Shown here one piece after another: positions 18,863-54,244 of a DNA stretch of 64,000 nt. The DNA lies in the NCBI GenBank assembly GCA_000004985.1, contig GG738903.1, one strand, 5' to 3'. Made by a program: the position numbers and the translations under genes. The stretch is from Naegleria gruberi. Taxonomy: Eukaryota. Below the pieces are notes generated by a model. The model searched no databases, was not told where the DNA came from, and worked only from the letters and a program-made list of their open reading frames with translations. Positions within the stretch are counted from its first letter, which is position 1. Every line of letters begins with the position of its first letter.

Positions 18863-21066
18863 ATGAACAGCAAGAGTATCATCTCATTGTTGCTCGTTGC
18901 CGTTTTGGCCATCGTTTTCATGTCAAGTGGAATTGATGCCAGAAAGAGCAAGGCAAAGAGAGCTGCTGAAGCAACACTGAAACGTTGCCAAGCATTAGGT
19001 GACCCACACTACAAAACTTTCAATGGAAAATTCGATTTCTACGGAGTTGGTGATTACGTTTTTGCTCAAACCAATGACGGTAATCTTATTATTCACACTA
19101 GAACTGGAAAGTGGAACAAGGCTTCAGTCAATACCGCTGTTGGTATGTAATTTAATTATTATTCCAATATCATGATTTTAACAATAATTATTCACATAAT
19201 ACATTTCATGATGCAATTTATTTTCAACTGATGACATTTGACATGTGGAAATTATTACTTCATATTTTTTCATGATGCATCCAATTCTTCTTTTAAAACT
19301 ATTTATCAAAAACAACAGCTGTTAAACTTGAAGGATCAAGAATTTTCGAATATGATGTTGTTTCTGATAAATTCTTCTTGAACAAGGTCCCAACCAAGAT
19401 TAACGTTGGTGAAACCGTCTCTTTGGGAACCAAATCATCAGTTAAGAGAGCTTCACAAACTTCATTCGTTGTCACTGCATCAAATGGTGCCATCTTGTCT
19501 GCCTCTTATTCCAGAAGCCCAGCTTATTTGAAGACTGGATCAATTGGTCACATTAACTTGATTCTCGATTCACCAAAGTCTGTTGACTACACTGAAGGAT
19601 CATTGTGTTCAAGAGCAAAGGTTAACGCCAGAACCCGATTGCCACGTGCTATTGGTATTTTGCATAACCACAAGATTAGAAAATTCAGAAAGGTTCCATC
19701 AACCAAGGATTTCCCAGCTGATAAGGTCAAGAAGGCCAGATCTGTCTGTAGAAAGGCTGGTATCAAGTTGAAGAAGCATCCAAATGCTTTCAAGGCTTGT
19801 GTTAAGGATCAACTTTTGACTGGTAAGAAATTGGGTAAGAAGATTGCCAAGAAGATCGCCAAGGTTGAAAAACTTGAAGATAAGAAGAAGAAGAAACTCG
19901 TCAAGAAGATTATCAAGAAGGCCAAGAAGGCTGCCAAGAAGAGACTTGTCAAGAAGAAGAAGTTGTTGAAGAAGTTGAAGAAATTGTTAAAGAAGAAGTC
20001 TCGTGCTGCTAAGAAGGCTGTTAGAAAATTGAAGAGAAAGCTCAGAAAGTTGAAGAGAAAGCCAAAGAAGGTCTCCACCAAGACTAAGAAGGCTAAGAGA
20101 GCTTCAAGAAAATTGAAGAGAAAGCTCAGAAAGTTGAGAAGATGTGCTAAGAAGGCTAAATCTTTGAAGAAGAGAAAGGCTTGCAGAAAGCTCTTGAAGA
20201 GAATTAGAAAGTTGAGAAAGCTCAGAAAGTTGAGAAGAAGAGGTGCCAGAAGAGGTGCTAGAAGACCAAGACGTGTTATCATCATCAAGAAATGCAAGAG
20301 ATCTCCAAGAAGAAGAGGTGTCAGAAGACCAAAGAGAAGAACTTCTAGAAAGATCAAGAAGGCCCAAAAGAAGAGAGCTAAGAAACTCGTTAGAAAGCTC
20401 AGAAAGATCAAGAAGGCTCAAAAGAAGAGAGTTAAGAAGGCTAAGAGAGCTGCTAGAAAGGCTAGACGTGCTGCTAGAAAGTTGAAGAGAAAGCTCAGAA
20501 GATTGGCTAGAAGACTCAAGAAGGCCAAGTCTTTTAAGGCTGCCAGACGTGCTAGACGTGCTTTGAGACTTGTTAAGAGACGTGCTAGACGTGCTGCTAA
20601 GCGTGCTTGTAAGCTCCGTAAGAGAGCCAAGAAGGTCAAGAAGGCTCTTAAGAGAAAGGTCAAGAAGGCCAAGAGAGCTGCCAGAAAGGCTAGAAAGGCT
20701 AGAAGAAACAGAAGACTCTCCAAGAAGGTTAAGAAGATCGTCAAGAGAACTTCTAGAGTTGTTGTCAAGAAGACAACTGCTAGAAAGATCAGAAAGTTGT
20801 TGAGAAAGGTCTTGAAGTTGAAGAAGAGATTGGGTAGAAAGTTCTGTCCAAAGAAGCACTTGCCAAGAAAGCTCAGATTGCTCTTGAAGAAATTGAAGGT
20901 CAAGATTGTTGCTTGTAAGAGAGGTAGAAGAGTTTCTAAGAGAAGAATCAACAAGAGAAAGCTCAGAAAACTCAGAAAGGTTAGAAAGGTCAGAAGAAAC
21001 AGAAGAGGTGTTACTGTCATTGGTAAGAGACTTGCCAGACAATTGGTTAAGGTTTCTAGATGTTAA
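18863..21066 (+). CDS. Secreted von Willebrand factor type D (VWD) domain protein with a roughly 430-residue polybasic (Lys/Arg/Ala/Leu) repeat tail. Two exons: 18863..19142 and 19319..21066.
   Basis: ATG at 18863. Signal peptide 'MNSKSIISLLLVAVLAIVFMSSGIDA'. VWD start 'GDPHYKTFNGKFDFYGVGDYVFAQTNDGNLIIHTR'. After the intron the VWD domain continues ('VKLEGSRIFEYDVV...NAFKACVKDQLL'). The tail is 'KKLLKKLKKLLKKKSRAAKKAVRKLKRKLRKLKRKPKK...'. The opposite-strand ORFs over the tail are L/S-rich mirror artefacts. Confidence 0.6.
19143..19318 (+). other. Spliceosomal intron (176 nt) in the VWD/polybasic gene
   Basis: Donor GTATGT at 19143 after '...NTAVg'. Acceptor AACAG at 19314..19318. The phase-1 join g|ct gives Ala and continues the VWD domain. 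Confidence 0.55.
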
Positions 21067-21195
21067 TTTAACTCTTAATAATATAATTTAATTTATTCAA
21101 AATTTCTCATATGTAAATATTGTTCTGTTAGCATGTAGATTGGGAGGTAGATGTCGAAATGTTGAATTTTATTTTTATTAAAAATTAAAAAAAAA

Positions 21196-23357
21196 ATGAA
21201 GAAGGTTCTTAGTCCATCATCTCTTCAACTCAATTTGAAAATTGCTTCGGGAGCTATTGCTTCATCATCAAAACATGCAACACAAATTGTAAAATATCTT
21301 GCTCAACAACAGCTGGCATCTGTTAATTCTTCCTATCATCAATCTAGTCGAGTTTCAACAAGCAAAAAAAAGGATAACGATGATGATGAATTTAAAAAGA
21401 ACATGAACAACATATTTGGAGCATTGGGAGGCTCGGAACAAGTGAAAGGACATTTGAATGATATATTCAATGCTTTTTTAAAACCTGGAGCAAATATTCA
21501 TACTTCAGGTGCTTCGAATTCTTCATCTTCATCATCTAAAAAGAGTGAACAACAAACAACGGAAAATGATGAAGCAAACAAGCCAAAGAATACCTTCATT
21601 CAAGATGAAGAACGATTAAACGAGAATTTCCACAAGATTGTCTTTGAAGCCTATCACATGCAACGTAAACAATTTGAAAACAAATTGACACCACAAGAAA
21701 TTGTGAATTGTCTTGATAAACATATTGTTGGACAAAAGGATGCAAAGAAGGCTGTCAGTGTAGCCCTTCGTAATAGATATAGAAGAAAGATTTTGATTGA
21801 TTGGGCAAAGAGTGAAAAAACTTTACTTGATCCTTCTGAGATAATTCCAAAGAATATTTTAATGATTGGATCAACAGGTTGTGGTAAAACTGAAATTGCA
21901 AGAAGATTGGCAAAATTAGTTTCTGCTCCATTCTTGAAGGTTTGTTTAATTCAATGTTCTCTATTAATTTATTATTATTATTTTATTATTATTATTATTA
22001 TTGGAATGTTCTTAATGAAAAAATTATATAGGTGGAAGCAACTAAATATACAGAACTTGGATATCATGGAAGAGATGTGGATACTATTGCTAGAGACTTG
22101 GTGGATGTTTCTATCAATGTTTTGAGAAATAATATTACTGATCTTTTCAAACAATTTTTAAATAGACCACCATCATCAACACCATCCGAACAAGAAGAAG
22201 GAACTTTGGAAGAACCAGACTTGTTTGGATCCTATCTTCAACAATTAATAGAGTATAGAATCATTCACTTGATGATTGGAACAAAAAATATAGCAAATTT
22301 GAGAAATGGTACCATTAAGGATTATTTGAACATGTTAAGAAATGGAGAATTGGACGATAGAAAAATTGAAGTGAGCATGCCTGAAAAGAAATCATCATTA
22401 GGATTATCTCAATTCAGTGACGTGTTTGATGCTGTCAAGGGTTCATTTGGATCATCTCTTGATAATTCCAAATTTTCAATGCCAGATGTTGCCAACTTGT
22501 CAGATCATCAAACACCACTTGACTCAATGTTAGGTCAATTAAATCCACAAAAATATAAAAAGGTTGAAATGACAATTAAGGAAGCCAAAGTGAGATTAGT
22601 AGAGTTGGAAATGGATAAATTTTTGAATAGCCCATTATTCATTGAAGAGGCAAGAAAGATTGCTGAAAGTGATGGAATTGTCTTTATTGATGAAATTGAC
22701 AAGATTTGTGGAAGTCCTGAAAAGAAGGCCGTTCAAGGAGATGCCTCAGGAGAGGGAGTGCAAAGGGATTTATTACCACTGTTAGAGGGTTGCACAATTA
22801 ATACTAAATATGGTCCAGTCAAGACGGATCATGTTTTGTTTATTGCTAGTGGTGCTTTCCATCAACAAAAGCCATCTGATTTAATGTCTGAATTCCAAGG
22901 TAGATTGCCAGTAAGAATCATGTTAACTGCACTTAATACGCCTGAAGAGCTCTATCAAGTATTAACAATGCCAGAATTCAACCTTGTGAGACAAAATATT
23001 TCCCTTATGAATAGTGAGGGTATTTCTTTGGTCTTTAGTGACGCAGCTAATAGAGAAATTGCCAATTTCAGTGCCTTGTGTAATGCAGGAAATGATAATC
23101 TTGGTGCAAGAAGATTAATTGGAATTATTGAAAAGGTAATTGATGAAATGTCTTTTATTATTCCAGACTTAGTGAGAATGGAGGATACTGAAAAAGCTGC
23201 ACAAGAATTGAGAAATATTGGATTTAACACTTTTGAAATATCAAGACAAGATAATAGAAATGCTATTACAATCACAATAACAGCCGAAGATGTGCAAAAG
23301 AAACTGGAAAAGAGCTCACAATTTAAAAAGTTGGATGTGAAGAAGTTTATGATTTAA
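21196..23357 (+). CDS. hslU: HslU (ClpY) AAA+ ATPase subunit of the HslVU protease, with a roughly 160-aa N-terminal extension. Two exons: 21196..21939 and 22032..23357.
   Basis: It aligns with E. coli HslU along its whole length: '[21 protein letters not shown]', Walker A '[19 protein letters not shown]', 'APFLKV|[22 protein letters not shown]' across the intron, Walker B 'VFIDEIDKI', and '[12 protein letters not shown]', '[10 protein letters not shown]', 'LQGRLPVRI', 'GARRL'. Confidence 0.88.
21940..22031 (+). other. Spliceosomal intron (92 nt) in hslU
   Basis: GTTTGT...(ATT)n-rich...TATAG. Exon 1 ends in phase 0 after 'PFLK'. Exon 2 begins 'VEATK', restoring the universally conserved HslU segment. 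Confidence 0.85.
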
Positions 23358-23376
23358 TAAATTTTGAAATTTAAAG

Positions 23377-26300
23377 TTAAAGTTCAAATCTTGCATTTGC
23401 TTTCATTCTTTGTTTGAGTTCGTTCACAATAGCAAATGATTTGTACTCATCTGTGAAAATAAACCTAGAGAAGGTATCACTCAAGTTCATAACAATTTGT
23501 TGATAGAGAGAATCAGCACATCCATTAATCATTCTTTGATAACCAACCCACATTACTTTGTTTTCTGTATTGTTTGCTTCTGCCTTCTTTTGTTCATCAA
23601 CCAATTTTACACTTGATTGACTAAAGTCAAGTTTGATTGGCTGGGCATTCATGGATTGCATTGGAATTGACTTTGTCTTTTTAGTATTCAACTCTCCATA
23701 CAGAATGCTTTCATAAACCTTATCCACAAATGGCTTGTCTTTACCTTGCTCGACAACCATCTTGAATAAGAGTAAGAATGAATTTCTTGAATGTGATGGA
23801 ATATTCACTTCCATAGTTGCTCCTAATTTGATGTAAACCTCGTAGGTGCTGACACAGTACGAGTAGAGATGTTTCAAGAACTCTTCAGAATCGTCCATCT
23901 TATTCTCCAAAGTATCCATAAAGAGCTTGATATCAACATACATGTAAAGATTTTCCAAAGACCATTCCTTTTTACAGAACTCCTCAAATAGAATAATACC
24001 TTCAGAGTCTGACATTACTTGAGAGAGTTCCTCATTTTCTAATTCCACTGCTTCTTCTTTCTTATTGTCATTAGGTTTTTCAGTTGTAATCTTCTTGTAG
24101 AAATTATAAAGTGAAACCAAGGAAACAAATCCACCAAATGCTAAAATATAAAATACAATATAGACAGTTTCAATGGCAAATCTGGCTGAGTCAAAGACAA
24201 GCCCAATTGTGAATTGTTTAGTGTCAGAGCTGGAGAATTTTCCATCAATACTGGCAAGACCTAACGCTTGAGAAACAATGAGGAAGATAAAGAATGCCAC
24301 AAAGAATATCATTTCCAAACGGTAGAACAGTGGAGTATCTCTTCTAACAAACCATTTCCATACTGTGTGTAATACTGTTGATATTTGAATTGTTTCCTTT
24401 CCTTTACCTGATGAAGTATCAGCACTAATTGGTTTAGTTTCTAATTTCTTTTGTCCTTTTCCTTCAGTAGTCGCTCCTTGATTTGTAAGTCTTGCAGAAA
24501 TTGAAGACTCCTTTGAATCGTCATCAAATTTGTAAGTCAAAATCATATCAGCAACGAAAATTAAAGCAACAATCAAGGCAAATGTCAAAATGACAACACA
24601 ATAGGATACAGAAACAATAGTAGTGTAGTCATTAGCACCAATAACTCCAGTATACTTGAGAACAAACCACAAAGTCCAATAGAGAATGTTAGCTACAGCA
24701 AACAAACATAAAATAGCATAATAGATTGGATTTGAGGTCAATCTCTTGAATGTTGTAATCTTCTTTGCATAATTTGCTAAAAGATTACCTTCCTTATTTC
24801 TCATCACATTCATTAAATTGTAAAGATGCTTCATGAATAAGTAACGAACCACTTGTAAGAGGAAGGCGAGAATGGCTGTTAAATTGAGAGTGTTGACAAT
24901 AATTGAAGCTATACCACCAAACCAATTGACTACATTAGTGACATCAGTTTCATAAGCTGCCGATTTCAATGTATTACTCAATAATTCATTAACAAGAATG
25001 GAATTTCTAATAATTGAAATCAAAACACATTCAGTCAACAGGGCAATCATACCCAAGTATGGAGCAACAAGTCTACTCTTAATAGGTTGCTTATTTTTAA
25101 ATATTGTGAGCAATACCAAAACAATAACAGCCACAATTCCATAAATTCCTCCAAAAACTATTTCAGCAATGTAATAACTGGCAACTTGTAATTTGTAGCT
25201 ACTATTAACAGCACTAGTCAAATTGAATTGCAAGAAAGTACCAAATCTTGTGGTATGGTCACACTTACAAACAACATCACCATTAACAAATGAAGAGACG
25301 TAACAACCATTTCCTAACCAAGCATTTTCGGTTTCATTCCAATATCTGCACTCCATTGTGGTATTGGTAATATTCTTATTTGATGTCAAGGTAGAAAGTG
25401 ATGTCTTGTCGAGAGAGAACGTCAAAGCAATAGGATTTTTGAGATTTCTCAATTCAACTTGACTGTCTGACATACTGAGTGTGAATTCCGTTAGAGGTGC
25501 AAGAATATAACTCTTCTTTGAGAAGGAATCAACCTTTGAGTTGATAGAGTAGGCTATGAATGATAAGCCAAAGGATCCAGTTGTTTCATTTGAAATTTGT
25601 TGGAAAATAGAATTCATATCCAAACTAACTTGATTAATACCAGTTGAAAGAGTTTGATTGGTAGTTGTTGGAGTTGACTTATCCAGAGAGAATGCAGAAA
25701 TTGTAATATTGACCATATCAGTTGCAAATGAAAGAGTTGGAACTGATCCAGTTGTAACCAATGTTGGAATTTCACCAATGAGAGCTGTATCAGCTGTACT
25801 TTCTGCAGTTGATTCCACCTTTTCAGAGTTTAGTCCAGTTTCCAATAAATTTGAAACAAGTTTTAGTGTTGAAAATGTGACAGTTGAATCCAAAATCTTT
25901 GTCTTGACAAATGAATACAATGCCTTTTCTTCTAAATATTGAGCTGTAACATTTGAAACGAAATTGGCTAACTTGGTGTTTACCTTGTCGACCATTTCAG
26001 AGCTCATCTTTGAAGGATCTGAAGTAATGGTAAGGAAAGAATCCAATGCACTTTGTGGATTCTTAATATCAAATTGAACATTGTCAATTAATTGATTCAA
26101 AACGGCTTGTGATTCATTGGTTGAAATTGATCGAGTAGAAATGGATGTATCATAAGAGTAAAGAACTGATTGCTCAGAAGAGCTAGCACTACTCAATAAA
26201 TTCAATAATTCCGAAACTGTTCCATTGTAAGGCGAAACTGTGACTGTTGAAGAATATGTCCACTCTTCATTACCATACTTATCGGCAACAAAGAGAATAA

Positions 26301-29300
26301 CAGTGACAGTCTCATCGTTGGTGCTTCTACTCTTCTTTGTTTGAGTCAAATAAGGAAGAATGGAACTGAAAGTGGAATTAGTAGTGTATGAAGTGATTCT
26401 GACAGGTTTTTGTTGTGTAGAATCATAAACACCTAAAGCATACGTGAGTGGTTTGAGAGAATCGGCAGCTGACCATTCCTGAACTGTGAAAACGAAATTT
26501 TCAATAAGTGCCATACCTTGAGTTGGCATTATAGTGACGAGTTTTGTTGTATTCTTTGGAGCTGATGCTGGTGGGATGATTGGATAAGTTGAGGTGATTG
26601 AAAAACTGGAATTACTGTCCTGATTTCTAAATTCCAAAATAATTTCCAAAATTGATTCTTCAGCAGTGTTCTGTGTGAGATTTGTAATTTGCGATTTGAA
26701 ATTGGAAACAGAATAGGAAAGATATGGAGAGCAAGTAAATCCATCAAGAGCAGAGTTTGGAACAATGGTTACATTTCCAGAAATGTCTAACATGTTAAGA
26801 GTTTGATTGAATCTAACGACAAGTGAGTATTCAACTTTCTTTGCTGCACAACCACCATTGTTACATCCCAAGAATCTTACCAAAGCACTTTGATTCAAAG
26901 AAACTGTCGGTACAACAATATCCAAACTAGTTGGTAAGGTATTGGTTGTGTAAGCTTCCTTCACACCAACAACAGATACAGAGTATGATTCTGGCACTTG
27001 AATAATGGTAATATTAAAACTAAATGTGTTTGATTGTCTGTAGAAGAAAACACCATCCTCTGAGGTTACAGCCATAGCCGACAATTCAAGATTGAAAGTT
27101 CCTGTTGGTAATACATAAACATTGAATAGGGCAATTGATTGAGTAATATTTGAAAGATAATCACTTCCATTATTTCCTTGACAATTAGTACATGTCCAAT
27201 TGTAAATCACATTTTCCAACAAGTATGGTTGTGGAAGAATCTCACCTAGAACAGCATGAAGTGACAAACTAGAAATATTGTTGTAGACACTATAACTCTC
27301 TACCGTGTAACCTCCAATTTTAAGTGAGACTGTAATTGGAGATTGTGTGATATTACAATTCTTACCAAACCATGGATAACTGCATTCACAAGTATTAGGA
27401 CTATTACAGATACCATTTTGTGAGCAAACATCCAAAGAAGTTGCATTCACACCAAAGCAAATTGGTGTTTGACAATTTTCTCCAGTGAAACCATTTGTGC
27501 ATTCGCAATTATTTGGCGATTTGCATTGACCATGTCCAGAACAAACATTCAATGTATCATTAAAGTACAAAGAATAGCATTGGTACAGAGTACATTCCTC
27601 TCCAAAGTAACCTTGTACTTGACAAGAGCAAGTATTTTCAGAATTACATTGACCTTTTCCATTACAAACTTGTGGATCGGTTGAATTCTTTCCGAAACAC
27701 GTTGAGAATTGACAATTATTACCAGAGTATGTTGAAGTACAATTACAGAAATCGACACCAATGCAGCTTCCTCTTTGGTTACAAACATTTGAAGAGTTGG
27801 CAAGAATATTTTCACACTTGAAGATTTCACAATTTGAACCGCCATATCCATAGCCACATGAACACAAATCAGTGTCAATACATTGACCAAAACCTGAACA
27901 AACTGATGGCATAGTTGAATTGATTCCGTAACAAATTGGGTATTGGCACTTGTCTCCAGTGTATCCTGTAACACAAGAACACTTATCAGGAGAAATACAT
28001 GAACCCTTTCCACTACAAATAAACTTGGAATCTTGTGAAGTATTATTTCCAAAGCAAGAAACATATTGACAGTTATTTCCACTATATCCTAAATTACATG
28101 AACAATTATTTGGTAAAATACATTTACCAAATCCAGAGCACACAGTATTATTGAGATAGTTCAATCCATAACAATTGTAATCTGTGCAATTCTTTCCATA
28201 GTAATTATAATCTGTACAGTAACAAACGTCTGGAGAAGTACAAATACCTTTTGCATTACATTGTGTTGGATCATCAAAGGTTCTATTATAACAAATTGGT
28301 TTGTTACATTGTCCACCAGACGAAAAACCAGATAGACATTGGCATGTATCTGGTGCAACGCAGCTACCATTATTGGAACAGACATTTGGATCTAGAGCCG
28401 AGAGTGAGTAACAAACTGGAATGTCACATCTGGAACCTGTGTATTGAGAGGTACAATTACATAAATTGGCACCAGTACAATTTCCCTGAGAGCTGCAATA
28501 TGCAACACCATCACATGAGTAGGCAGAACATTCTGCATTGCCTTTCCATCCAGTGTTGCACTGACAAGTATTATTGGAAATACACAAGCCATTTCCATGA
28601 CAGTTGTCAGAGGCATCACATGTGAAAGTATTACAATTTGAACCTGTCCAGCCAGATCTACATTGGCATGTGTTATTTCCAATACATTGACCATTTTGAG
28701 AACAAGAATTAACTCCGTCACAACTAATAACTGAACAATTGGAACTTCCTTTCCATCCACTTTGACATTGGCAAGTATTGTTTGAAATACATAAACCATG
28801 ATCGTAACAATTAAGCACACCATCGCATGTGAAAATGTCACATTTTGGTCCAGACCATCCAGATCTACATTGACATGTGTTATTTCCAATACATACTCCA
28901 TTTTGAGAACAGCCACTAACACCATCACATGAGAATTGGGAACATTCTGCATTGCCTTTCCAGCCACTATAACATTGGCAAGTGTTGTTGGAAATACACA
29001 AGCCATTACTGTTACAATTTGAAGAGGCATCACAAGTGAAAACATTGCAACTTGCTCCTGTCCAACCAGACCTACATTCGCATGTGTTATTTCCAATGCA
29101 TTGACCATTTTGAGAGCATGAATTAACACCATCACAAGTAATTGCCGAACAATTCGAGTTACCTTTCCATCCACTAACACAGTTGCATGTATTAGCGCCT
29201 GTACACGTACCATGTCCTGAGCAGAAATCTCTATCCTTACAAGTAAAAGTATTACAATTAGCTTCTGTCCATCCACTGTTACAATTACAAGTATTATTTG

Positions 29301-31509
29301 AAATACAAGTACCGTGTCCATTACAAGCTCCTAATGCATCACAACTGATTGCTGAACAATTTGCATTACCTTTCCATCCACTATCACAAGTGCATGTATT
29401 TGCGCCTGTACACGTACCATGTCCAGAACAGTAATTTCTTTGATCACAAGTGAAAACTGAACAATCGACAGCACCTCTCCAACCTGTTTTACAACTGCAA
29501 GTGTTATTCGAAACACAAGTACCCTTACTGGCACCTCCACAATTACTTAAGGCATCACAACTAATTGCTGAGCAATTTGCATTTCCTTTCCATCCACTTT
29601 CACAAGTGCATGTATTAGCACCTGTACACGTACCATGTCCTGAACAATAATTAGTTCCGTCACAAGTGAATTCAGAGCAGTTACTAGCTCCTCTCCATCC
29701 TGAATTACAGGTGCAGGTATTTGGACCGCTGCATATTCCGTGTCCATAACAACCTCCAACTAGCTCACAACTCACTGAATTACAACTTGTGTCTCCCTTC
29801 CAACCATCATTACATGAACAAGTATTTGCACCAACACATTCACCATGCCCAGAACAATAATTGCGCGAATCACACGAGAATATTGAGCAATTACTAGCTC
29901 CTCTCCATCCTGAATTACAGGTGCAGGTATTTGGGCTGCTGCATATTCCATGTCCATAACAACCTCCAACTAGCTCACAACTCACTGAATTACAACTTGT
30001 ATCTCCCTTCCAACCAGCATAACAAGAACAATTATTGGGTCCAATACAGTCACCATGAGATGAACAATAATTGCGCGAATCACACGAGAATATTGAGCAA
30101 TTGGCAGCTCCTCTCCAGCCAGTAACACAAGAGCATGTATTAGCAGAAGTACATGTTCCATGGTTTGAACAAACATTTGCTGTATCAGTTGCATTGTAAG
30201 AGTAACAAATTGGAATGTTGCACGAAATTCCAGTCCAATCAGTATTACATGAACAATATGTTTCTGAAGCACAAGAACCATGTCTTCTCCAACATTGTAG
30301 AGATGGCGAACACAATTCATAGGAACAATCAAGTCCTGTATAGTTGGTGGCAGTACAGTTACAACTGTTCGGAGCAATGCAATCTCCCTTATTGTAACAA
30401 ACATTTGGTGATGGATAATAGTAACCGTAGCAAATATTGTATTGGCATTCAGAACCAGTATAACCAGTATTGCAGGAACAAGTATTCGGTGAAGTACAGG
30501 TACCTCTCACAGATCCAGAGCAAGCATTTGCTGTATTATTGGAAGGTATTCCATAGCAAATTGGATATTGACATTTTGGCCCAGTGTATGTCGAATTACA
30601 TTGACATGTGTCAGTATCAATACAGTTACCATGCCCTGAACAAATAACTGATGAGATATTTTTAAAGGTACTCACTCCAAAACATATTGGAATTTCACAA
30701 TTATTTCCTGTGTAACCTTGTGGACATTGACATTGATTAGTAAAAACACAAGTTCCTCTTCCTGAACAAACAGTAGTATCATTTTGTAAAATTCCATTAC
30801 AAATAGTAACATTACAATCATTTCCAAACCAATTGGCTTTACAATTACAAGTATCCAAATCAGTACAATTACCATGTGAATTACAGACATTTGAGGCATT
30901 CTGAACTATTCCAAAGCATGAAGGAGTGCCACATTGAGTACCACTCCATCCATCATCACATTTACACACATTGGTATCGATACAATCTCCATTTCCTTTA
31001 CAAACAGAATTTGTTTCATTCTGTAATATTCCAAAACAGGAGGTAACATTACAATCAATTCCATACCAATTTGATGAGCATGAACAAGTATCAGTACCAG
31101 AACAAGTTCCATGCCCATTACATACAGCACTTGTTTCATTCTGTAATATTCCAAAACAGGAGGTGATTTGACATTGAGTGCCATACCAATCTGGATCACA
31201 TTCACAATTATCTTGTTCGGTACAGTTTCCTCTTCCGTTACAAACTTGGGTTGTGTTTGACAATTTTCCAAAGCAATAGATGAGTGTATTGTTGTTGGAT
31301 TCTTGTGCTTGTGTGAAAAGGAAACTCTCTTTAGTTTCGAATATTTGTTGTTGGTCTTGATGGAATAAAAACATCATGATGAAACAAGTTGACAAAATTG
31401 ATGCATATAAAATTATATTCATCAGAAAGGAATGATTACCCGGAGAAGATTGTTTCCTCCTTGTCATTCCAATACGAGAAAACCCATTATTATTATTGCT
31501 TCTCATCAT
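23377..31509 (-). CDS. Giant adhesion-GPCR-like receptor, 2710 aa. From N to C: signal/anchor, roughly 60 tenascin-type EGF-like repeats, an S/T-rich stalk, a GPS-like motif, 7TM, and a C-terminal RGS domain.
   Basis: Continuous 8.1 kb ORF. Repeats of the form C-x-C-xxG(W/Y)xGxxC. GPS-like 'CRYWNETENAWLGNGCYVSSFVNGDVVCKCDHTTRFGTFL'. Seven hydrophobic helices follow. The C-terminal RGS fold is 'ILFEEFCKKEWSLENLYMYVDIKLF...YEVYIKLGATMEVNIPS...'. Confidence 0.8.
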   Translation of the reverse strand: MMRSNNNNGFSRIGMTRRKQSSPGNHSFLMNIILYASILSTCFIMMFLFHQDQQQIFETKESFLFTQAQESNNNTLIYCFGKLSNTTQVCNGRGNCTEQDNCECDPDWYGTQCQITSCFGILQNETSAVCNGHGTCSGTDTCSCSSNWYGIDCNVTSCFGILQNETNSVCKGNGDCIDTNVCKCDDGWSGTQCGTPSCFGIVQNASNVCNSHGNCTDLDTCNCKANWFGNDCNVTICNGILQNDTTVCSGRGTCVFTNQCQCPQGYTGNNCEIPICFGVSTFKNISSVICSGHGNCIDTDTCQCNSTYTGPKCQYPICYGIPSNNTANACSGSVRGTCTSPNTCSCNTGYTGSECQYNICYGYYYPSPNVCYNKGDCIAPNSCNCTATNYTGLDCSYELCSPSLQCWRRHGSCASETYCSCNTDWTGISCNIPICYSYNATDTANVCSNHGTCTSANTCSCVTGWRGAANCSIFSCDSRNYCSSHGDCIGPNNCSCYAGWKGDTSCNSVSCELVGGCYGHGICSSPNTCTCNSGWRGASNCSIFSCDSRNYCSGHGECVGANTCSCNDGWKGDTSCNSVSCELVGGCYGHGICSGPNTCTCNSGWRGASNCSEFTCDGTNYCSGHGTCTGANTCTCESGWKGNANCSAISCDALSNCGGASKGTCVSNNTCSCKTGWRGAVDCSVFTCDQRNYCSGHGTCTGANTCTCDSGWKGNANCSAISCDALGACNGHGTCISNNTCNCNSGWTEANCNTFTCKDRDFCSGHGTCTGANTCNCVSGWKGNSNCSAITCDGVNSCSQNGQCIGNNTCECRSGWTGASCNVFTCDASSNCNSNGLCISNNTCQCYSGWKGNAECSQFSCDGVSGCSQNGVCIGNNTCQCRSGWSGPKCDIFTCDGVLNCYDHGLCISNNTCQCQSGWKGSSNCSVISCDGVNSCSQNGQCIGNNTCQCRSGWTGSNCNTFTCDASDNCHGNGLCISNNTCQCNTGWKGNAECSAYSCDGVAYCSSQGNCTGANLCNCTSQYTGSRCDIPVCYSLSALDPNVCSNNGSCVAPDTCQCLSGFSSGGQCNKPICYNRTFDDPTQCNAKGICTSPDVCYCTDYNYYGKNCTDYNCYGLNYLNNTVCSGFGKCILPNNCSCNLGYSGNNCQYVSCFGNNTSQDSKFICSGKGSCISPDKCSCVTGYTGDKCQYPICYGINSTMPSVCSGFGQCIDTDLCSCGYGYGGSNCEIFKCENILANSSNVCNQRGSCIGVDFCNCTSTYSGNNCQFSTCFGKNSTDPQVCNGKGQCNSENTCSCQVQGYFGEECTLYQCYSLYFNDTLNVCSGHGQCKSPNNCECTNGFTGENCQTPICFGVNATSLDVCSQNGICNSPNTCECSYPWFGKNCNITQSPITVSLKIGGYTVESYSVYNNISSLSLHAVLGEILPQPYLLENVIYNWTCTNCQGNNGSDYLSNITQSIALFNVYVLPTGTFNLELSAMAVTSEDGVFFYRQSNTFSFNITIIQVPESYSVSVVGVKEAYTTNTLPTSLDIVVPTVSLNQSALVRFLGCNNGGCAAKKVEYSLVVRFNQTLNMLDISGNVTIVPNSALDGFTCSPYLSYSVSNFKSQITNLTQNTAEESILEIILEFRNQDSNSSFSITSTYPIIPPASAPKNTTKLVTIMPTQGMALIENFVFTVQEWSAADSLKPLTYALGVYDSTQQKPVRITSYTTNSTFSSILPYLTQTKKSRSTNDETVTVILFVADKYGNEEWTYSSTVTVSPYNGTVSELLNLLSSASSSEQSVLYSYDTSISTRSISTNESQAVLNQLIDNVQFDIKNPQSALDSFLTITSDPSKMSSEMVDKVNTKLANFVSNVTAQYLEEKALYSFVKTKILDSTVTFSTLKLVSNLLETGLNSEKVESTAESTADTALIGEIPTLVTTGSVPTLSFATDMVNITISAFSLDKSTPTTTNQTLSTGINQVSLDMNSIFQQISNETTGSFGLSFIAYSINSKVDSFSKKSYILAPLTEFTLSMSDSQVELRNLKNPIALTFSLDKTSLSTLTSNKNITNTTMECRYWNETENAWLGNGCYVSSFVNGDVVCKCDHTTRFGTFLQFNLTSAVNSSYKLQVASYYIAEIVFGGIYGIVAVIVLVLLTIFKNKQPIKSRLVAPYLGMIALLTECVLISIIRNSILVNELLSNTLKSAAYETDVTNVVNWFGGIASIIVNTLNLTAILAFLLQVVRYLFMKHLYNLMNVMRNKEGNLLANYAKKITTFKRLTSNPIYYAILCLFAVANILYWTLWFVLKYTGVIGANDYTTIVSVSYCVVILTFALIVALIFVADMILTYKFDDDSKESSISARLTNQGATTEGKGQKKLETKPISADTSSGKGKETIQISTVLHTVWKWFVRRDTPLFYRLEMIFFVAFFIFLIVSQALGLASIDGKFSSSDTKQFTIGLVFDSARFAIETVYIVFYILAFGGFVSLVSLYNFYKKITTEKPNDNKKEEAVELENEELSQVMSDSEGIILFEEFCKKEWSLENLYMYVDIKLFMDTLENKMDDSEEFLKHLYSYCVSTYEVYIKLGATMEVNIPSHSRNSFLLLFKMVVEQGKDKPFVDKVYESILYGELNTKKTKSIPMQSMNAQPIKLDFSQSSVKLVDEQKKAEANNTENKVMWVGYQRMINGCADSLYQQIVMNLSDTFSRFIFTDEYKSFAIVNELKQRMKANARFEL

Positions 31510-42200: not shown

Positions 42201-45200
42201 ATGTTATACTACATTCAAGTCTTGTATTAATACTACTTCAACTGCTGTTCCATGGTGTAAATCTGCATGTCAAATCATGTATACTCAAGCTAGTACTATT
42301 GCTAATTTTAGTTATCCAATGAATGCTACATGTGACTCATTCCCTGACTCCAACTGTAACTACGGTGTCTACCTTCCTTCCACTACCACTTGTTTTGGTA
42401 AATCAATTAAGGATGCTACTGTATGTTCAGGAAAAGGATCATGTATTTCTCAAGATACTTGTAATTGTGCAAATGGTTATTCTGGAAGCAATTGTGAAAA
42501 GGCAGTTTGTTTCTCAAAGATTAGTTCTGATTCATCAGTTTGTTCAGGAAGAGGTTCATGTGTTGCTCCAAATAGTTGTACATGTAAAACAGGATACACA
42601 GGAGAAAAATGTGAACTTCCAACATGTAATGGTAAGAGTGATGTTTTGGGTGGTTGTTCATTCCGTGGATCTTGTAATACTACTGATTCTTGTATCTGTA
42701 ATGGTAATTTTGATTCATCAACATTCTGTTCTAAATGTAAGAGTGGTTATGTTGGATCAAATTGTGATGTTCCAGTATGTTTCTTAATTTCTGCCACTGA
42801 TAGTACTGTTTGTGGAGGTCAAGGTTCTTGCATTAGTCCAAACACTTGTAAATGTAAATCAGGATATTCAGGCACTGCTTGTCAAACCTTCTCTTGTTAT
42901 GGTATTTCAAAGACTGACAGTAATGTCTGTGGTGGAAGTACAAGAGGTTCATGTATTGGTCCAGACAATTGTAAATGTGTTACCAATTGGAACAATAAGA
43001 ATAATACTTGTACTAGTTGCAGTCCTGCATACACTGGTTCTTCATGTACTACTCCAGTTTGTAGTGCAACTGATACATGTAATTCTCATGGTACTTGTGA
43101 TTCTAATTTCAAGTGTGTCTGTACTGGTAATTTCATTGGTGATTATTGTTCATCATGTGCCACTGGATTTGTTGGTGCAAATTGTGATATTTCTTGCTCA
43201 GCTGCCAAGACATGTAATTCACACGGTTCATGTACCAATACTGGTTCTTGTACTTGTAATGGTAATTTTGATCCTTCTTTCAATTGTGCATCTGCTAAAT
43301 GTCTTAATGGTTTCTTGGGTGATGGATGTAATTACAAGGTTGATACATCTTCTTTCAAGTTCAATGCTAATGGTGATAGAATTACTGCTACCATTTATAA
43401 TGCTGTCAAGACTCAAGTTGCCTGTTCTCAAATTATTTCATCTCTCTCCAAGCTTGGTACTGGTCCAATTTGTAACATGGATGGTAAATCATCTATTGAA
43501 ATTATTTTAGGTGTTGGTGCTACCATTGTTACTGGTGATTCATTAACTCTTTATTCATTGATTGGTGACTCTAGCTCAACTGTTAATGCTGTTGTTTCTG
43601 CTGGTGAATTTGTTGCTTTAGCACCAACTTCTGCATTGACTTCTGACAAGTCTCTTGTTTCCCAATGTGATGTTTTGAATTTGAATGCATTTGATTCTGT
43701 TTCTCTTGATCGTCGTCCTCTTACATTCTCTTGGACTTGTACTGCTGGTCCATCATCAGATGATCAAACCAAATTGAATTCTTTAATTTCCTCTACTACA
43801 TTGAGTGGTATCNNNNNNNNNNNNNNNNNNNNNNNNNNNNNNNNNNNNNNNNNNNNNNNNNNATTGCTCAAGCAGCTCCAACTCTTTCAATTAAGGAAGG
43901 TACTTCTGTTAAATTCCTCATTGGAACTACAAGTCTCATTACACCAGTAATTTCATTCCCAACTTGTTATACTGGTACAGGTGCTACAACTTATACATTT
44001 ACACTTGATGGATCTGTTTCAAAGGTTTCATCCTTATCAGTTTCTACCAAGAATAACTTGTTGGTCCTTGGTTCTAGTTTTACCAATATTAATCAAGAAG
44101 GTGATTATTACTTTATTGTAACTGCATCTGCTGATAGTGCTCAAGCAGTTAGTACAACTGTTAAAGTTAGTGCTGTTGCTCAACCTATTTCAGTTGCATT
44201 CAGTGTTCCAGATATGACTCAATCTAAGGATGACCCAGTTGCCTTCTCTATTTCTGTTACTGATCCAAGTAATACTCAAGATACATTGACTCTCTCAACA
44301 ACATGTATTGATTCAACTGGTACTTCTTGTTCTAATCCAGGTTCTGCTTCATCATTCAGTTCTTCATTCGCAGCTGGTACTTATATCTTTACTACCACTG
44401 CTACTAAGGGTTCAAGAACTTCAAGTGCCAAATTGACAATTACAGTTCTCGATACTTCAAAGAGTTTAATTGTCAGAGTTTCAATTACTTCCAATGTTGA
44501 TTTGACAACTGTTGATCCAACAAAGGACTTGTATTTGACCTATAATACTTTGGATTCCTTGTCTGCTCCAACATTCTCTTGGACCTCTGCTACTGGTGAT
44601 GTTTCTTCAAGTTCTCTTCTCATCATTCCAAGCTCTAATCTTGTTCCTGGTTCTTCCTATGTTGTTTCTTTATCAGTTGTTGATGGTGCTAAATCCGGTA
44701 CTGCATCTGTCACAATTACAGTCAACTCTCCTCCAACAGTTGGTGTCTTTGAAGTTTATCCAACTAGTGGTGTTGCTTTGAGTGATTCATTCAGTCTCAA
44801 GTGTGGTAATGGTTGGTCTGATCCACAAACTCCATTATCATTCCAATTCTTCTTCTATGATTCTGTATCTATGAAGTGGAATTCACTCACTGAAAAGTCT
44901 CAACAACAAAGTGCCAACATTCAACTTCCATCACCAAGTTCAGGTTCAACATTGACTATTAAGGCTGTTGTTTATGATGCTTTGGGAGCTTCTTCTGAAT
45001 CTAGAACAAATATTACCATTACTCAACCAAGTAATGCCGACGTTGCAAGTACTTTAACTTCAATGGCAAAGGGTACTAATACTGTTACCTTGTCTGGTGT
45101 TAGTGCTGCAATGTTTGTTATTGGTGCTGTTAGTAATCCAACTGATGCTGAAAAGGCAGCCATTCAACAAGCTTCTACTGCACTTGCCAATTCATTCTTA

Positions 45201-52047: not shown

Positions 52048-54099
52048 ATGGCTAAATTTCACATTTGTTTGTTCACACTAATGTTGCTGTTACTAATTTC
52101 TTGTTCAACAGTGGCTGGAATTTCGTCTGGGCTTTTGTCAAAGGTGAAGGATGGTGATTGTGTGGTTGGGGTGAGAACGTTTCTGATAATGTTTGTGTGG
52201 AAACATAAATTTTCAAACGAAACTTTGACGAAACTGATTACTGCTAAAGATAATGATTCCAGAAGAAAGTATTTGGTCGAAAATTTGCAGGAGAGAGGTT
52301 TAACTATCGGTACCATACGCGACTATACTCCTTTTCTTTCAAATTATTTCAAATATTCTAATCTTTCGCTTTCTCATGGCCTTTCGAATAGCATACTATC
52401 ATCTAGCTATTTTTCCATTTACCCACAAGTTGACATGTGTCAAAGAAGAGATTATTTTACGAGATATGATGCCTTTTTGTTAGATCCCTATGACTTTGCT
52501 TATTACGTCAGGTTTTACAGAGATCTTGGGATGACATCTGGCATGTTCATGAATAGTGATGACTTTGTAGCTGTACCACTCATTCCCTTCGAAGTCTACA
52601 CTCAAACTACAAGAAATCAAGTTTCCTCCTTATTTGATTTGAATGTTGCAAGCTGTGATGCAAAACCTGATATTTCTGATGCGCAGTTTTTGAGAAGGTT
52701 GACAGGTTATGCTAATTTTTCACAGCAAGATGTTGAAATAATTGGTAATGTTACTGGTAAATCACAAATTTATGGAAATTGGACACTTGTGAATAACTTT
52801 CTAAATATGGAGATGACAGAACTTACCATAAATGAAACATGGCAAGAATTACTACCTTCCACATGCTACATGTGTTCAACAGATGGTTGTTATGGTGAAA
52901 ATTTCAGGCCTGATCTTGATCTTTTCTTCATTCCACAGTTAGTAATTATAGTAATTTACTTTTTATTACTTTTTGGGTTGAAAATTTACAAAAAACCTTC
53001 AATGAAACGAAGAATTGGAATTCCCTATACTCCGATTCTTATCTTGGTTGTCATGATTACCTTTGCCGGAGTTTCTAGAACTTGTGTTGGCGTTTGGTAT
53101 AGTGCATGTTTGTTTTGTTTGTTTTGGTGGATATTGATCTATATCAGTACAATTATTCGATTCTACTATTTGCGTAATTTGTATGCTCTCATAGTGATGT
53201 TTCCAAATAGAGAAAAGATGTTGAAAATGTTAGCTTCTCAGAAAGTTGGAATACTCATGACAGTTATGTTGACTTTTGTCATTTCACAAATATTGAATCT
53301 AGTGAGTGTTTACTTTTTTGTAAATGAAGATAAGGCTGCCACTGATTTTTATAGACCCATTATTGGTATCATTATTTTATTATCGTTGTGGGTCTTTGGT
53401 GGTTGTTGCTTTTTATTAGATTTGTTTCTTCAGAGAAAAACTATTCGACAGGGTGGTATTCGAAAGTTTTTCTTCTTTGATGATCCATTCTACTTGAGAA
53501 TAGACTTGATTTCTACCATATTACCTGTCATTATTGCGATACTTACAGGAATTGAGGCAACCTCAAATGAAGTTGTTGATGGTCTTGCAGGAGTTTCCAA
53601 TACTTTACTTTGTTTTAGTTTCGTTCAGATTAGTGGGGGAAATGTGCTAATGATTGAGATTTTCAAAAGGGTAAAAAGAAGAAAGGAATCTTCGCAATTG
53701 ACATGGGATCAAGAATTAACAAATACAGATTTACTCCAAATTTTAAAGGAGTATTGCGAAAAGGAGTTTAGTTCAGAGAATTACGAATTTTATATTAAGT
53801 TGAAATCACTCCAGAATAGAAAGTTTATCAAGTTGAAGGAACTGCAAAAAATTGAAGCTGAATTTATTCGAAACTATTCAAAATACGAAGTGAATATTCC
53901 ATCTTCATGCAAAAAGACTTTTTATGAACTTTTAAACAAATGCCAAGAAGAAACTCAATTAGAATTTCAATTAATTTGGGATTGTGTTGCTCCAGAATTA
54001 TTACTCAACCTTCAAGATACCTTCAGTCGATTACAAGATACCTCAATATATGCCAAATGGCTTTCAGTCCAATCTTTGAAAGAAAATAATAATGTTTAG
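52048..54099 (+). CDS. 7TM receptor with a C-terminal RGS domain, 683 aa. It has a signal peptide and an ectodomain of about 270 aa.
   Basis: ATG at 52048 (aaaaaaATG). Signal 'MAKFHICLFTLMLLLLISCSTVAG'. Seven hydrophobic helices between about aa 290 and 520. C-terminal RGS 'LLQILKEYCEKEFSSENYEFYIKLKSLQN...YSKYEVNIPSSCKKTFYELL'. Confidence 0.75.
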   Translation: MAKFHICLFTLMLLLLISCSTVAGISSGLLSKVKDGDCVVGVRTFLIMFVWKHKFSNETLTKLITAKDNDSRRKYLVENLQERGLTIGTIRDYTPFLSNYFKYSNLSLSHGLSNSILSSSYFSIYPQVDMCQRRDYFTRYDAFLLDPYDFAYYVRFYRDLGMTSGMFMNSDDFVAVPLIPFEVYTQTTRNQVSSLFDLNVASCDAKPDISDAQFLRRLTGYANFSQQDVEIIGNVTGKSQIYGNWTLVNNFLNMEMTELTINETWQELLPSTCYMCSTDGCYGENFRPDLDLFFIPQLVIIVIYFLLLFGLKIYKKPSMKRRIGIPYTPILILVVMITFAGVSRTCVGVWYSACLFCLFWWILIYISTIIRFYYLRNLYALIVMFPNREKMLKMLASQKVGILMTVMLTFVISQILNLVSVYFFVNEDKAATDFYRPIIGIIILLSLWVFGGCCFLLDLFLQRKTIRQGGIRKFFFFDDPFYLRIDLISTILPVIIAILTGIEATSNEVVDGLAGVSNTLLCFSFVQISGGNVLMIEIFKRVKRRKESSQLTWDQELTNTDLLQILKEYCEKEFSSENYEFYIKLKSLQNRKFIKLKELQKIEAEFIRNYSKYEVNIPSSCKKTFYELLNKCQEETQLEFQLIWDCVAPELLLNLQDTFSRLQDTSIYAKWLSVQSLKENNNV

Positions 54100-54244
54100 A
54101 ACCTTACAACTCTATTGTCATAATAAATATGATAATATTTCAATGTAGGTTCTTGGGTTTTCGGACAAATCGATTCAACACTACAAAGAAAGACCAGTAA
54201 GAAAGCTGCTCTATTTTGGCGTATAATTTTTAAAATTACTTTTC

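What the first reader, a model, noticed from the sequence alone, without database searches (positions are those of the whole stretch)
21196..23357. Bacterial-type HslU (ClpY) in a eukaryotic nuclear gene with a spliceosomal intron and an N-terminal extension
The protein aligns end to end with proteobacterial HslU, covering Walker A and B, the sensor and the C-terminal motifs. It is interrupted by a 92-nt GTTTGT...TAG intron exactly inside the invariant 'PFIKVEATKFTEVGY' segment. It also carries about 160 extra N-terminal residues that could form an organellar presequence. HslVU is patchily distributed in eukaryotes, where it is mitochondrial in some protist lineages. Its presence here implies an HslV partner gene elsewhere in the genome. 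It is a useful phylogenetic marker.
Basis: partly seen in the sequence, partly recalled or inferred. Interest (0 to 1): 0.55.

Follow-up and report, generated by a model that had tools for sequence, protein, structure and literature searches.

The report
Mitochondrial HslU gene of Naegleria gruberi
This is a real, expressed nuclear gene of the amoeba Naegleria gruberi for a bacterial-type HslU unfolding ATPase that works in the mitochondrion; such genes are already known in protists, so the finding is correct but ordinary.

Summary
Window 21196..23357 (+) encodes a 689-aa HslU/ClpY. It has two exons split by a 92-nt GT..AG intron (21940..22031) inside PFLK|VEATKYTE, and 163 extra N-terminal residues.

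The window is Naegleria gruberi NEG-M nuclear DNA. The gene is already in RefSeq as XP_002671711.1 ("predicted protein"). A published organelle proteome places it in the N. gruberi mitochondrial fraction (19 peptides, 47.6% coverage). So expression and location are settled by literature.

New details:
- This is the divergent, roughly 15-fold less abundant of two N. gruberi HslU paralogues. I call it B; the canonical A is XP_002673356.1.
- B carries eukaryote-type HslU signatures.
- B orthologues share an intron at the same position and phase, inside the Walker A motif, with A genes of Naegleria and Willaertia. B therefore arose by duplication of a nuclear gene, not by a new bacterial transfer.
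- The RefSeq model adds a probably spurious 3' intron (23150..23283) that deletes the conserved HslV-docking tail (…LDVKKFMI).

An HslV partner was not shown for N. gruberi; one is reported for N. fowleri. Known biology, low interest.

The parts
21196..21939 (+). Exon 1 (codons 1-248): N-terminal extension plus the start of the HslU AAA+ core, through Walker A to ...APFLK
21196..21372 (+). Presequence-like segment (aa 1-59): 9 K/R, 0 D/E, 16 S/T; first acidic residue at position 60
   Evidence: AF2 pLDDT is low. Published predictions, with columns read as: PSORT II mito 70, MultiLoc mito 58, TargetP mito 40 versus other 46.
21373..21591 (+). Acidic and Ser-rich low-complexity linker (aa 60-132), variable between Naegleria species
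21592..21684 (+). Conserved pre-core helix (aa 133-163, [31 protein letters not shown])
   Evidence: Near-identical in N. lovaniensis and in a metagenomic Naegleria species. AF2 helix 133-163, pLDDT 77-92.
21868..21891 (+). Walker A motif GSTGCGKT (aa 225-232). It is uninterrupted here, whereas six related genes carry a phase-2 intron inside it.
21940..22031 (+). Spliceosomal intron, 92 nt, GTTTGT...TATAG, phase 0, 13% GC, (ATT)n-rich. It is N. gruberi-specific and varies in length between strains (80 nt in the environmental strain).
22032..23357 (+). Exon 2 (codons 249-689 plus TAA)
   Evidence: (P0001 is 100% identical)
22059..22070 (+). Pore-1 loop GYHG (aa 258-261). Bacteria have GYVG and other eukaryotic HslUs have GFHG.
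22125..22652 (+). I (intermediate) domain, approximately aa 280-455. It is about 44 aa longer than in E. coli and keeps the [18 protein letters not shown] element.
   Evidence: Boundaries are inferred from the alignment to E. coli HslU chains. AF2 confidence is partly low at 373-416.
22680..22700 (+). Walker B motif VFIDEID (aa 465-471)
22896..22910 (+). QGRLP with the arginine finger (aa 537-541). It is preceded by KPSD (aa 528-531), which keeps the equivalent of E. coli Pro315.
   Evidence: PMC4106860
23103..23117 (+). Sensor-2 motif GARRL (aa 606-610)
23150..23283 (+). Stretch that RefSeq XP_002671711.1 removes as a second intron (134 nt, GTCTTT...ACAG, shifts the frame). It is most likely coding.
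   Evidence: The model was reconstructed from its published mass and confirmed by exact look-up. The region is conserved in orthologues. The one strain difference inside it is synonymous in the unspliced frame.
23331..23354 (+). C-terminal HslV-docking tail LDVKKFMI (aa 682-689)
   Evidence: Compared with tails tested in PMC6429459 Table 1.

Best explanation
This is a nuclear gene of Naegleria gruberi for the second, divergent paralogue ('B') of mitochondrial HslU (ClpY), the AAA+ unfoldase of the bacterial-type HslVU protease.

Shown here: a 92-nt intron must be removed to give a 689-aa precursor. Residues 164-689 form a complete HslU: Walker A GSTGCGKT, pore loop GYHG, an enlarged I domain, Walker B DEID, the arginine finger, sensor 2 GARRL, and the tail DVKKFMI.

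Shown by literature: the protein is made and co-fractionates with mitochondria.

Inferred: the basic, acid-free first ~59 residues direct import. The mature protein forms an ATP-driven hexameric ring that grips substrates with the pore-loop tyrosine and selects them through its I domain. The C-terminal tail inserts between HslV subunits to open and activate the HslV threonine protease.

Origin: B arose by duplication of the nuclear, intron-bearing eukaryote-type HslU gene (paralogue A) in the ancestor of Naegleria and Willaertia, and has since evolved roughly twice as fast. Its likely role is a different substrate range on the same HslV.
For: - Family: TIGR00390 scores 411.9 bits, above the 362.45 cutoff. 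PDB HslU chains reach 1e-97. The AF2 model has pTM 0.73, and the 50 best matches listed in the PDB fold search are all HslU/ClpY.
- Organism and context: the window is N. gruberi NEG-M, with eukaryotic neighbour genes.
- Expression and location: XP_002671711.1 is in Sheet 1 (putative mitochondrial proteome) of PMC8134430 Suppl. Data 2, with 19 unique peptides and 47.6% coverage. Its LFQ values rise from undetected to 24.6 to 27.1 towards the densest, most mitochondria-enriched fraction.
- Selection: against an environmental strain, exon 2 shows 5 substitutions and all are synonymous, while the intron carries a 12-nt indel.
- Eukaryote-type signatures shared with other eukaryotic HslUs and absent from the bacterial sequences aligned: pore loop G[FY]HG versus GYVG; DAS.EGVQ versus DVSREGVQ; loss of the Pro in DLLPELQGR.
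- Tree: in NJ bootstraps the sister group of B is purely eukaryotic in 184 of 200 replicates, and B plus alphaproteobacteria appears in none.
- Shared intron: a phase-2 intron in the Gly codon of Walker A (GPT|G.GKT) occurs in B genes of N. lovaniensis, Willaertia and a metagenomic Naegleria, and in A genes of N. fowleri, Willaertia and an N. gruberi-like strain. It is absent from Acrasis and Andalucia.
- Distribution: no further B-type sequence appears among the 150 best hits in the 1.84 billion representative proteins.
- Tail: [10 protein letters not shown] resembles tails that activate HslV in vitro, namely LmHslU1 KKVDIKKFIL, Ec EDLSRFIL and Pf DLKKYII.
- HslV: a MEROPS T01B homologue is reported in N. 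fowleri.
Against: - No HslV of N. gruberi itself was retrieved. It is not in the window and not in the stored part of the proteome table.
- TargetP in the published table is undecided (mito 40, other 46).
- The amphipathic-helix signal of the N-terminus is not better than shuffles (208 of 2000 shuffles reach it).
- Walker A has Ser where every other aligned HslU has the near-invariant Pro.
- The pore loop has His instead of Val, and the tail ends -FMI rather than -F/Y-I/L-L.
- About 30 residues specific to Naegleria B orthologues precede the tail and could change docking geometry.
- The NJ tree puts B at the base of the eukaryotic sequences, not next to paralogue A. B plus heterolobosean A appears in 0% of bootstraps, and B plus eukaryotes versus bacteria in only 70%. 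The duplication scenario therefore rests on the shared intron and the restricted distribution, not on the tree.
Confidence: 0.9

Rival explanations
1. Paralogue B no longer works as an HslV activator. It acts as a stand-alone unfoldase or chaperone, or as a regulatory subunit in mixed hexamers with paralogue A.
For: B evolves much faster than A: 69% versus 86% identity between Naegleria species over the same trimmed alignment columns. It is about 15-fold less abundant than A in the mitochondrial fraction (LFQ 27.1 versus 31.0). It has non-canonical Walker A (GSTG) and tail (-FMI) residues and extra segments. In T. brucei only the HslU2 tail activates HslV (PMC4106860 and PMC6429459).
Against: The D-[VI]-x-K-[FY]-x-I tail is conserved in all four B orthologues despite 45-60% overall identity. 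The Pro315 equivalent and all ATPase motifs are intact. In L. major the HslU1 tail, which is very similar to this one, does activate HslV.
Confidence: 0.2
2. B is the heterolobosean orthologue of kinetoplastid HslU1 (or HslU2). Under this view the two-HslU state is ancient in Discoba and not a Naegleria/Willaertia-specific duplication.
For: The tail [10 protein letters not shown] is close to LmHslU1 KKVDIKKFIL, and Phe plus Pro315 are kept as in HslU1. The NJ tree places B deep among the eukaryotic sequences.
Against: Paralogue A has the same kind of tail (KKSDLKKFIL) and also keeps Phe plus Pro, so these are ancestral states. B plus Bodo HslU1 (P0286) appears in only 4.5% of bootstraps. B is no closer to HslU1 (45.8%) than to bacterial HslUs. 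The Walker-A intron is shared by A and B only within Naegleria and Willaertia. No B-type sequence was found outside them.
Confidence: 0.1
3. The gene is bacterial contamination of the assembly or a recent bacterial gene transfer.
For: The best named non-eukaryotic hits are alphaproteobacterial HslUs (Falsiroseomonas and Roseomonas group) at about 44% identity.
Against: The gene has a required spliceosomal intron and the GC content of the surrounding window, about 34%. Eukaryotic genes lie within 130 nt upstream and 20 nt downstream. Orthologues exist in N. lovaniensis, Willaertia and a metagenomic Naegleria. It has eukaryote-type signature residues and an intron position shared with paralogue A.
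Confidence: 0.01
4. The gene is a decaying pseudogene or an annotation artefact.
For: The public model is labelled only 'predicted protein', and its 3' end differs from the model used here.
Against: The reading frame is intact and all motifs are kept. Strain differences in exon 2 are synonymous only. The protein was detected with 19 unique peptides.
Confidence: 0.01

Closest known systems
Bacterial HslU (ClpY) of the HslVU protease (E. coli, H. influenzae; NCBIfam TIGR00390)
   Same: Same domain order: N-terminal AAA+ domain, inserted I domain, C-terminal domain. Walker A and B, the arginine finger, sensor 2 and the C-terminal D-x-x-[KR]-[FY]-x-x tail are all present. The protein scores above the equivalog cutoff.
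   Different: It is a nuclear gene with an intron. It has 163 extra N-terminal residues and an I domain about 44 aa longer. About 30 extra residues precede the tail. The pore loop is GYHG instead of GYVG, Walker A is GSTG instead of GPTG, and identity to bacterial HslU is about 44-49%.
N. gruberi paralogue A, XP_002673356.1 ('ATP-dependent protease', 505 aa)
   Same: It comes from the same organism and the same mitochondrial proteome. It shares the eukaryote-type signatures. Its orthologues share the Walker-A phase-2 intron with B orthologues.
   Different: A is conserved, at about 53% identity to bacterial HslU and 86% between Naegleria species. It is shorter (about 70-aa extension), roughly 15-fold more abundant, and has GPTGVGKT and GFHG. 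B is 50.6% identical to A over the core.
Kinetoplastid mitochondrial HslU1 and HslU2 (T. brucei, L. major; PMC2277460, PMC4106860, PMC6429459)
   Same: These are also nuclear-encoded mitochondrial HslUs, with two paralogues whose I domains differ. The tail of B is close to that of LmHslU1.
   Different: There is no phylogenetic support for orthology with either one. B lacks the Tyr/Thr pair that marks HslU2. The duplication here appears to be independent.
ClpX, the other bacterial-type mitochondrial unfoldase
   Same: It belongs to the same AAA+ clade (Pfam AAA_2) and works by a similar mechanism.
   Different: ClpX models score far below their cutoffs (191 bits against a cutoff of 359). The protein has no zinc-binding domain and no IGF loop. 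It has the I domain and the HslU tail instead.

Membership tests
HslU/ClpY (TIGR00390) | Whole-protein score above the curated equivalog cutoff | tested here: met
   411.9 bits against a cutoff of 362.45, E 3.2e-123
HslU/ClpY (TIGR00390) | AAA+ nucleotide-site motifs: Walker A GxxxxGK[ST], Walker B hhhhDE, arginine finger, sensor-2 GARRL | tested here: met
   [20 protein letters not shown] and GARRL are all present. The Pro to Ser change in Walker A still fits the consensus.
HslU/ClpY (TIGR00390) | I (intermediate) domain inserted between Walker A and Walker B | tested here: met
   About aa 280-455, including the conserved [11 protein letters not shown] element. The 50 best fold matches listed in the PDB are all HslU.
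HslU/ClpY (TIGR00390) | Pore-1 loop GYVG (aromatic then hydrophobic) | tested here: inconclusive
   The loop is GYHG: the Tyr is kept and Val is replaced by His. The same His occurs in 13 of the 15 non-B eukaryotic HslUs aligned (GFHG). It is therefore a eukaryotic variant and not a defect peculiar to this gene.
HslU/ClpY (TIGR00390) | C-terminal HslV-activating tail ending D-[LIV]-x-[KR]-[FY]-[ILV]-[LI] | tested here: met
   The tail is ...LDVKKFMI in the two-exon model and is conserved in four orthologues. It is lost in the RefSeq model. Compared with experimentally active tails.
HslU/ClpY (TIGR00390) | HslV (ClpQ) partner encoded in the same genome | not testable with these tools
There is no HslV in the window. 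An N. fowleri T01B HslV homologue is reported at 2e-62.
HslU/ClpY (TIGR00390) | Hexamer with ATPase and unfoldase activity | not testable with these tools
   This needs biochemistry.
Eukaryotic mitochondrial HslU | Nuclear gene with eukaryotic gene structure | tested here: met
   The gene needs a GT..AG intron, has eukaryotic neighbour genes and lies on an N. gruberi scaffold.
Eukaryotic mitochondrial HslU | N-terminal targeting sequence and presence in mitochondria | tested here: inconclusive
   The first 59 aa are basic and free of acidic residues, but the amphipathicity test was not significant and no targeting predictor is available here. Published proteomics places the protein in the mitochondrial cluster. 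Published predictors give PSORT II 70, MultiLoc 58 and TargetP 40 versus other 46.
Eukaryotic mitochondrial HslU | Groups with eukaryotic HslUs and not with bacterial ones | tested here: met
   Signature residues are shared with eukaryotic HslUs. The sister group is eukaryotic in 184 of 200 NJ bootstraps and the bipartition has 70% support. An intron position is shared with paralogue A.
Kinetoplastid HslU2 type | Tyr at position -3 of the tail and Thr in place of E. coli Pro315 | tested here: not met
   This protein has Phe at -3 and keeps KPSD.
Kinetoplastid HslU1 type | Specific phylogenetic grouping with HslU1 (Phe plus Pro alone are ancestral states) | tested here: not met
   B plus Bodo saltans HslU1 appears in 4.5% of bootstraps.

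The most novel reading that the evidence does not exclude
Naegleria and Willaertia independently evolved a two-HslU mitochondrial protease system. A lineage-specific duplicate (B) of the nuclear HslU gene acquired a long N-terminal extension, an enlarged I domain and an insertion before the tail. It now serves as a separate substrate selector for the single HslV, converging on the HslU1/HslU2 arrangement of kinetoplastids. In N. gruberi the ancestral Walker-A intron of this copy was lost, and a new (ATT)n-rich, length-polymorphic intron appeared 61 nt downstream at an AAG|GT proto-splice site. That would be a recent intron relocation or gain.
Probability: 0.45. Interest if true: 0.4.

Novelty: already known. 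Interest (0 to 1): 0.2.

Why it matters
Nuclear-encoded mitochondrial HslVU in protists is well documented (PMC2277460, PMC7050145, PMC6429459). This particular protein is already in RefSeq and in a published mitochondrial proteome.

Three modest points are useful:
- The public gene model probably lacks the HslV-docking tail, which would mislead functional or structural work.
- Naegleria carries two HslU paralogues. HslVU is reported absent from animals, fungi and plants (PMC7050145) and has been proposed as a target for assembly inhibitors in parasites, which gives it some relevance to the pathogen N. fowleri.
- The shared and replaced introns give a clean small example of paralogue dating by intron position, and of intron turnover.

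Tried and rejected
- **HslV search.** tblastn of E. coli HslV against the window and two orthologue loci (L001, L003) found nothing. Text searches of the supplements of PMC8134430, PMC7050145 and PMC12699882 gave only chance letter matches or rows without sequences, because the files were cut when stored. The PDB sequence search puts T. brucei HslV (4hnz) at rank 14, beyond the five alignments shown, so I could not obtain a eukaryotic HslV query. I ran no further search on a bacterial HslV query, because its best 120 hits would all be bacterial.
- **RefSeq model.** My first reconstruction, an in-frame intron 23020..23196, was rejected. Its mass was off by 0.003 kDa, whereas calibration error was at most 0.0004 kDa. 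The second reconstruction, 23150..23283, was confirmed by exact look-up.
- I used an alignment of the exon translations plus orthologues instead.
- **Trees.** NJ trees could not resolve where B sits among the eukaryotic HslUs. No maximum-likelihood program was available.
- **Missing locus.** The genomic locus of N. gruberi paralogue A is not on record. I used a contig from a 100%-identical environmental strain instead.
- **Amphipathic helix.** The test on the N-terminus was not significant.
Full report
**Observation.** The region holds two open reading frames in different frames, 21196..22125 and 22032..23357. Removing 21940..22031 (92 nt, GTTTGT...TATAG, 13% GC) joins them into a 689-aa protein and restores ...APFLK|[11 protein letters not shown].... 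Reading through in the exon-1 frame gives junk and a stop. The exon-2 frame is closed by TAG 22029..22031. ATG 21196 is the first ATG after an in-frame TGA at 21163.

The protein scores 411.9 bits on NCBIfam TIGR00390 hslU (cutoff 362.45), with residues 164-629 matching profile positions 1-412 of 441. It matches solved HslU chains at E 1e-97 to 1e-88, against 1e-36 for ClpX. An AlphaFold2 model of the 634-aa public version has pTM 0.73. The 50 best matches listed from the PDB fold search are all HslU/ClpY.

**Source and public status.** Four other ORFs of the window are exact matches to N. gruberi NEG-M RefSeq proteins on a 304,373-nt scaffold. Neighbouring genes are eukaryotic. A 2,710-aa protein with EGF/teneurin repeats and an RGS domain converges on the HslU stop codon, and a TPR protein lies upstream.

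The gene is annotated as XP_002671711.1 / EFC38967.1 / D2VW81 / NAEGRDRAFT_73288, 'predicted protein'. I rebuilt that model from its published mass (70.749 kDa) and confirmed it by exact look-up. It also removes a second 'intron', 23150..23283 (GTCTTT...ACAG, 134 nt), which shifts the frame and ends the protein in ...[18 protein letters not shown]. The 689-aa sequence is not in the protein collection.

The unspliced reading is better supported, for three reasons:
- The removed stretch and the true C-terminus align with orthologues from N. lovaniensis, Willaertia magna and a metagenomic Naegleria, and with bacterial HslU.
- It restores the conserved tail ...LDVKKFMI.
- The one strain difference inside it is synonymous in that frame.

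**Expression and location (literature).** Horvathova et al. 2021 (PMC8134430) fractionated N. gruberi organelles and defined 946 putative mitochondrial proteins. XP_002671711.1 is in Sheet 1 (mitochondrial) of their Supplementary Data 2.
- It has 19 unique peptides and 47.6% coverage.
- Its best BLAST hit is HslU of Roseomonas stagni (1e-116).
- Its LFQ values are undetected, 24.6 and 27.1 across fractions of increasing density. The densest fraction is the one most enriched in mitochondria.
- Predictor scores are PSORT II mito 70, MultiLoc mito 58, and TargetP mito 40 versus other 46.

**N-terminal extension.** Residues 1-59 have 9 K/R, no D/E and 16 S/T, which is typical presequence composition. 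My hydrophobic-moment test was not significant (208 of 2000 shuffles). Residues 60-132 are acidic and Ser-rich, variable between species and of low model confidence. Residues 133-163 are nearly identical in three Naegleria species and are modelled as a confident helix leading into the core. The extension is therefore a presequence-like part, a linker and a conserved helix, not one long presequence.

**Two paralogues.** The same proteome table lists a second HslU, XP_002673356.1 (505 aa, 37 peptides, LFQ 31.0, about 15-fold more abundant). I call it paralogue A. It has orthologues in N. fowleri, Willaertia and Acrasis and is conserved: 86% identity between Naegleria species and about 53% to bacterial HslU. 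The window gene, paralogue B, shows 69% and 46-49% over the same alignment columns. A profile of B sequences searched against 1.84 billion representative proteins recovered only the N. lovaniensis, Willaertia and metagenomic Naegleria orthologues ahead of generic HslUs.

**Origin of B.**
- B shares residues that distinguish the eukaryotic from the bacterial HslUs aligned: His in the pore loop (G[FY]HG versus GYVG), DAS.EGVQ versus DVSREGVQ, and loss of the Pro in DLLPELQGR.
- In NJ bootstraps B is monophyletic (100%). Its sister group is purely eukaryotic in 184 of 200 replicates. B plus eukaryotes versus bacteria has 70% support, and B plus alphaproteobacteria has none. Its position among the eukaryotic sequences is unresolved.
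- The strongest evidence is gene structure. A phase-2 intron inside the Gly codon of Walker A (GPT|G.GKT) is present in B genes of N. lovaniensis, Willaertia and the metagenomic Naegleria. It is also present in A genes of N. fowleri, Willaertia and an N. gruberi-like strain. It is absent from Acrasis A and from Andalucia.

B is therefore a duplicate of an intron-bearing nuclear gene. The duplication most likely happened in the common ancestor of Naegleria and Willaertia. Recent bacterial transfer is excluded.

N. gruberi B is the only one of the seven genes that lacks the Walker-A intron. It is also the only one with an intron at FLK|VEA, 61 nt downstream. Orthologues read AAG|GTR or AAA|GTG without interruption at that point. 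The intron is (ATT)n-rich. In an environmental strain that is 99.2% identical over 7.4 kb, it is 12 nt shorter, while exon 2 differs by five substitutions, all synonymous. The intron is real, young and specific to this lineage.

**Function.** All ATPase motifs are intact. The tail [10 protein letters not shown] keeps the Asp, the Lys and the aromatic residue, and the equivalent of E. coli Pro315 is retained. In kinetoplastids, HslU2 has Tyr and Thr at those two sites, while HslU1 and bacteria have Phe and Pro (PMC4106860). Synthetic tails of LmHslU1 (KKVDIKKFIL), E. coli HslU and P. falciparum HslU all activate L. major HslV (PMC6429459). I infer an HslV-activating unfoldase with its own substrate range, given its enlarged and divergent I domain. 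Hexamer formation, HslV docking and substrates are inferred, not shown.

**HslV.** HslV is not in the window and I could not retrieve it for N. gruberi. A supplementary protease table for N. fowleri lists a MEROPS T01B 'HslVU peptidase subunit' homologue (NfowleriV212_g5444, 2e-62) (PMC8296547).

**Comparison with kinetoplastid HslU1 and HslU2.** The resemblance of the tail to LmHslU1 is shared by paralogue A, so it is an ancestral state. B groups with Bodo saltans HslU1 in only 4.5% of bootstraps. The two-HslU state in Naegleria is most simply an independent duplication.

**Verdict.** The biology is already known: mitochondrial HslVU is documented in several protist lineages (PMC2277460, PMC7050145, PMC12699882), and this protein has been published as part of a mitochondrial proteome. 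The additions here are a corrected 3' gene model, recognition of the gene as the divergent paralogue B, and the intron-based evidence for its origin.

Noticed in passing
window 23150..23283: RefSeq XP_002671711.1 splices this stretch out (134 nt, weak GTCTTT donor, shifts the frame). That replaces the last 69 residues, including the conserved HslV-docking tail, with 14 unrelated residues. Orthologue conservation and a synonymous strain difference indicate that the stretch is coding.
   Followed up: yes
L001 6732..6870, L003 6375..6414, L004 559..598, L005 3408..3456, L006 3507..3785, L009 around position 170: A phase-2 intron at the same position inside the Walker A Gly codon is shared by HslU paralogues A and B in Naegleria and Willaertia. 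It is missing only from the window gene, and is absent from Acrasis and Andalucia.
   Followed up: yes
window 21939..29355 versus L002 (ENA ERZ929261 / run ERR1078381): A contig from a data set labelled 'metagenome' is 99.2% identical to the window, so an N. gruberi-like strain is present in that sample. The HslU intron there is 12 nt shorter, an (ATT)n length polymorphism.
   Followed up: partly
window 19378..21066 (+): A 562-aa ORF immediately upstream is made almost entirely of Lys/Arg-rich low-complexity repeats and has no Pfam match. It coincides with a strong purine skew (GC skew 0.23 and AT skew 0.21 at 20-22 kb). The long ORFs on the opposite strand are probably by-products of the repeat.
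   Followed up: no
window 23377..31509 (-): A 2,710-aa single-exon ORF carries dozens of teneurin-type EGF repeats and a C-terminal RGS domain. Its stop codon lies 19 nt from the HslU stop, so the two genes converge tightly.
   Followed up: partly
window 43813..43862, 54245..58238, 59084..62871: These are assembly gaps (runs of N, 7,832 N in the whole window). The very long ORFs listed at 54096..58325 and 58745..62982 are artefacts of these runs.
   Followed up: yes
window 52048..54099 (+): The RGS-domain protein XP_002671716.1 falls in the same 90%-identity cluster as XP_002671703.1, which is reported on a contig of the same length. This suggests a recent local duplication.
   Followed up: no
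alignment (not in the window): In the alignment, 13 of the 15 non-B eukaryotic HslUs (streptophytes, Andalucia, heteroloboseans and others) have GFHG in the pore-1 loop, while all eight bacterial sequences aligned have GYVG. Streptophyte HslU homologues (Chara, Marchantia, Sphagnum, Ginkgo) appear among the hits, although one paper states that plants lack HslUV.
   Followed up: partly
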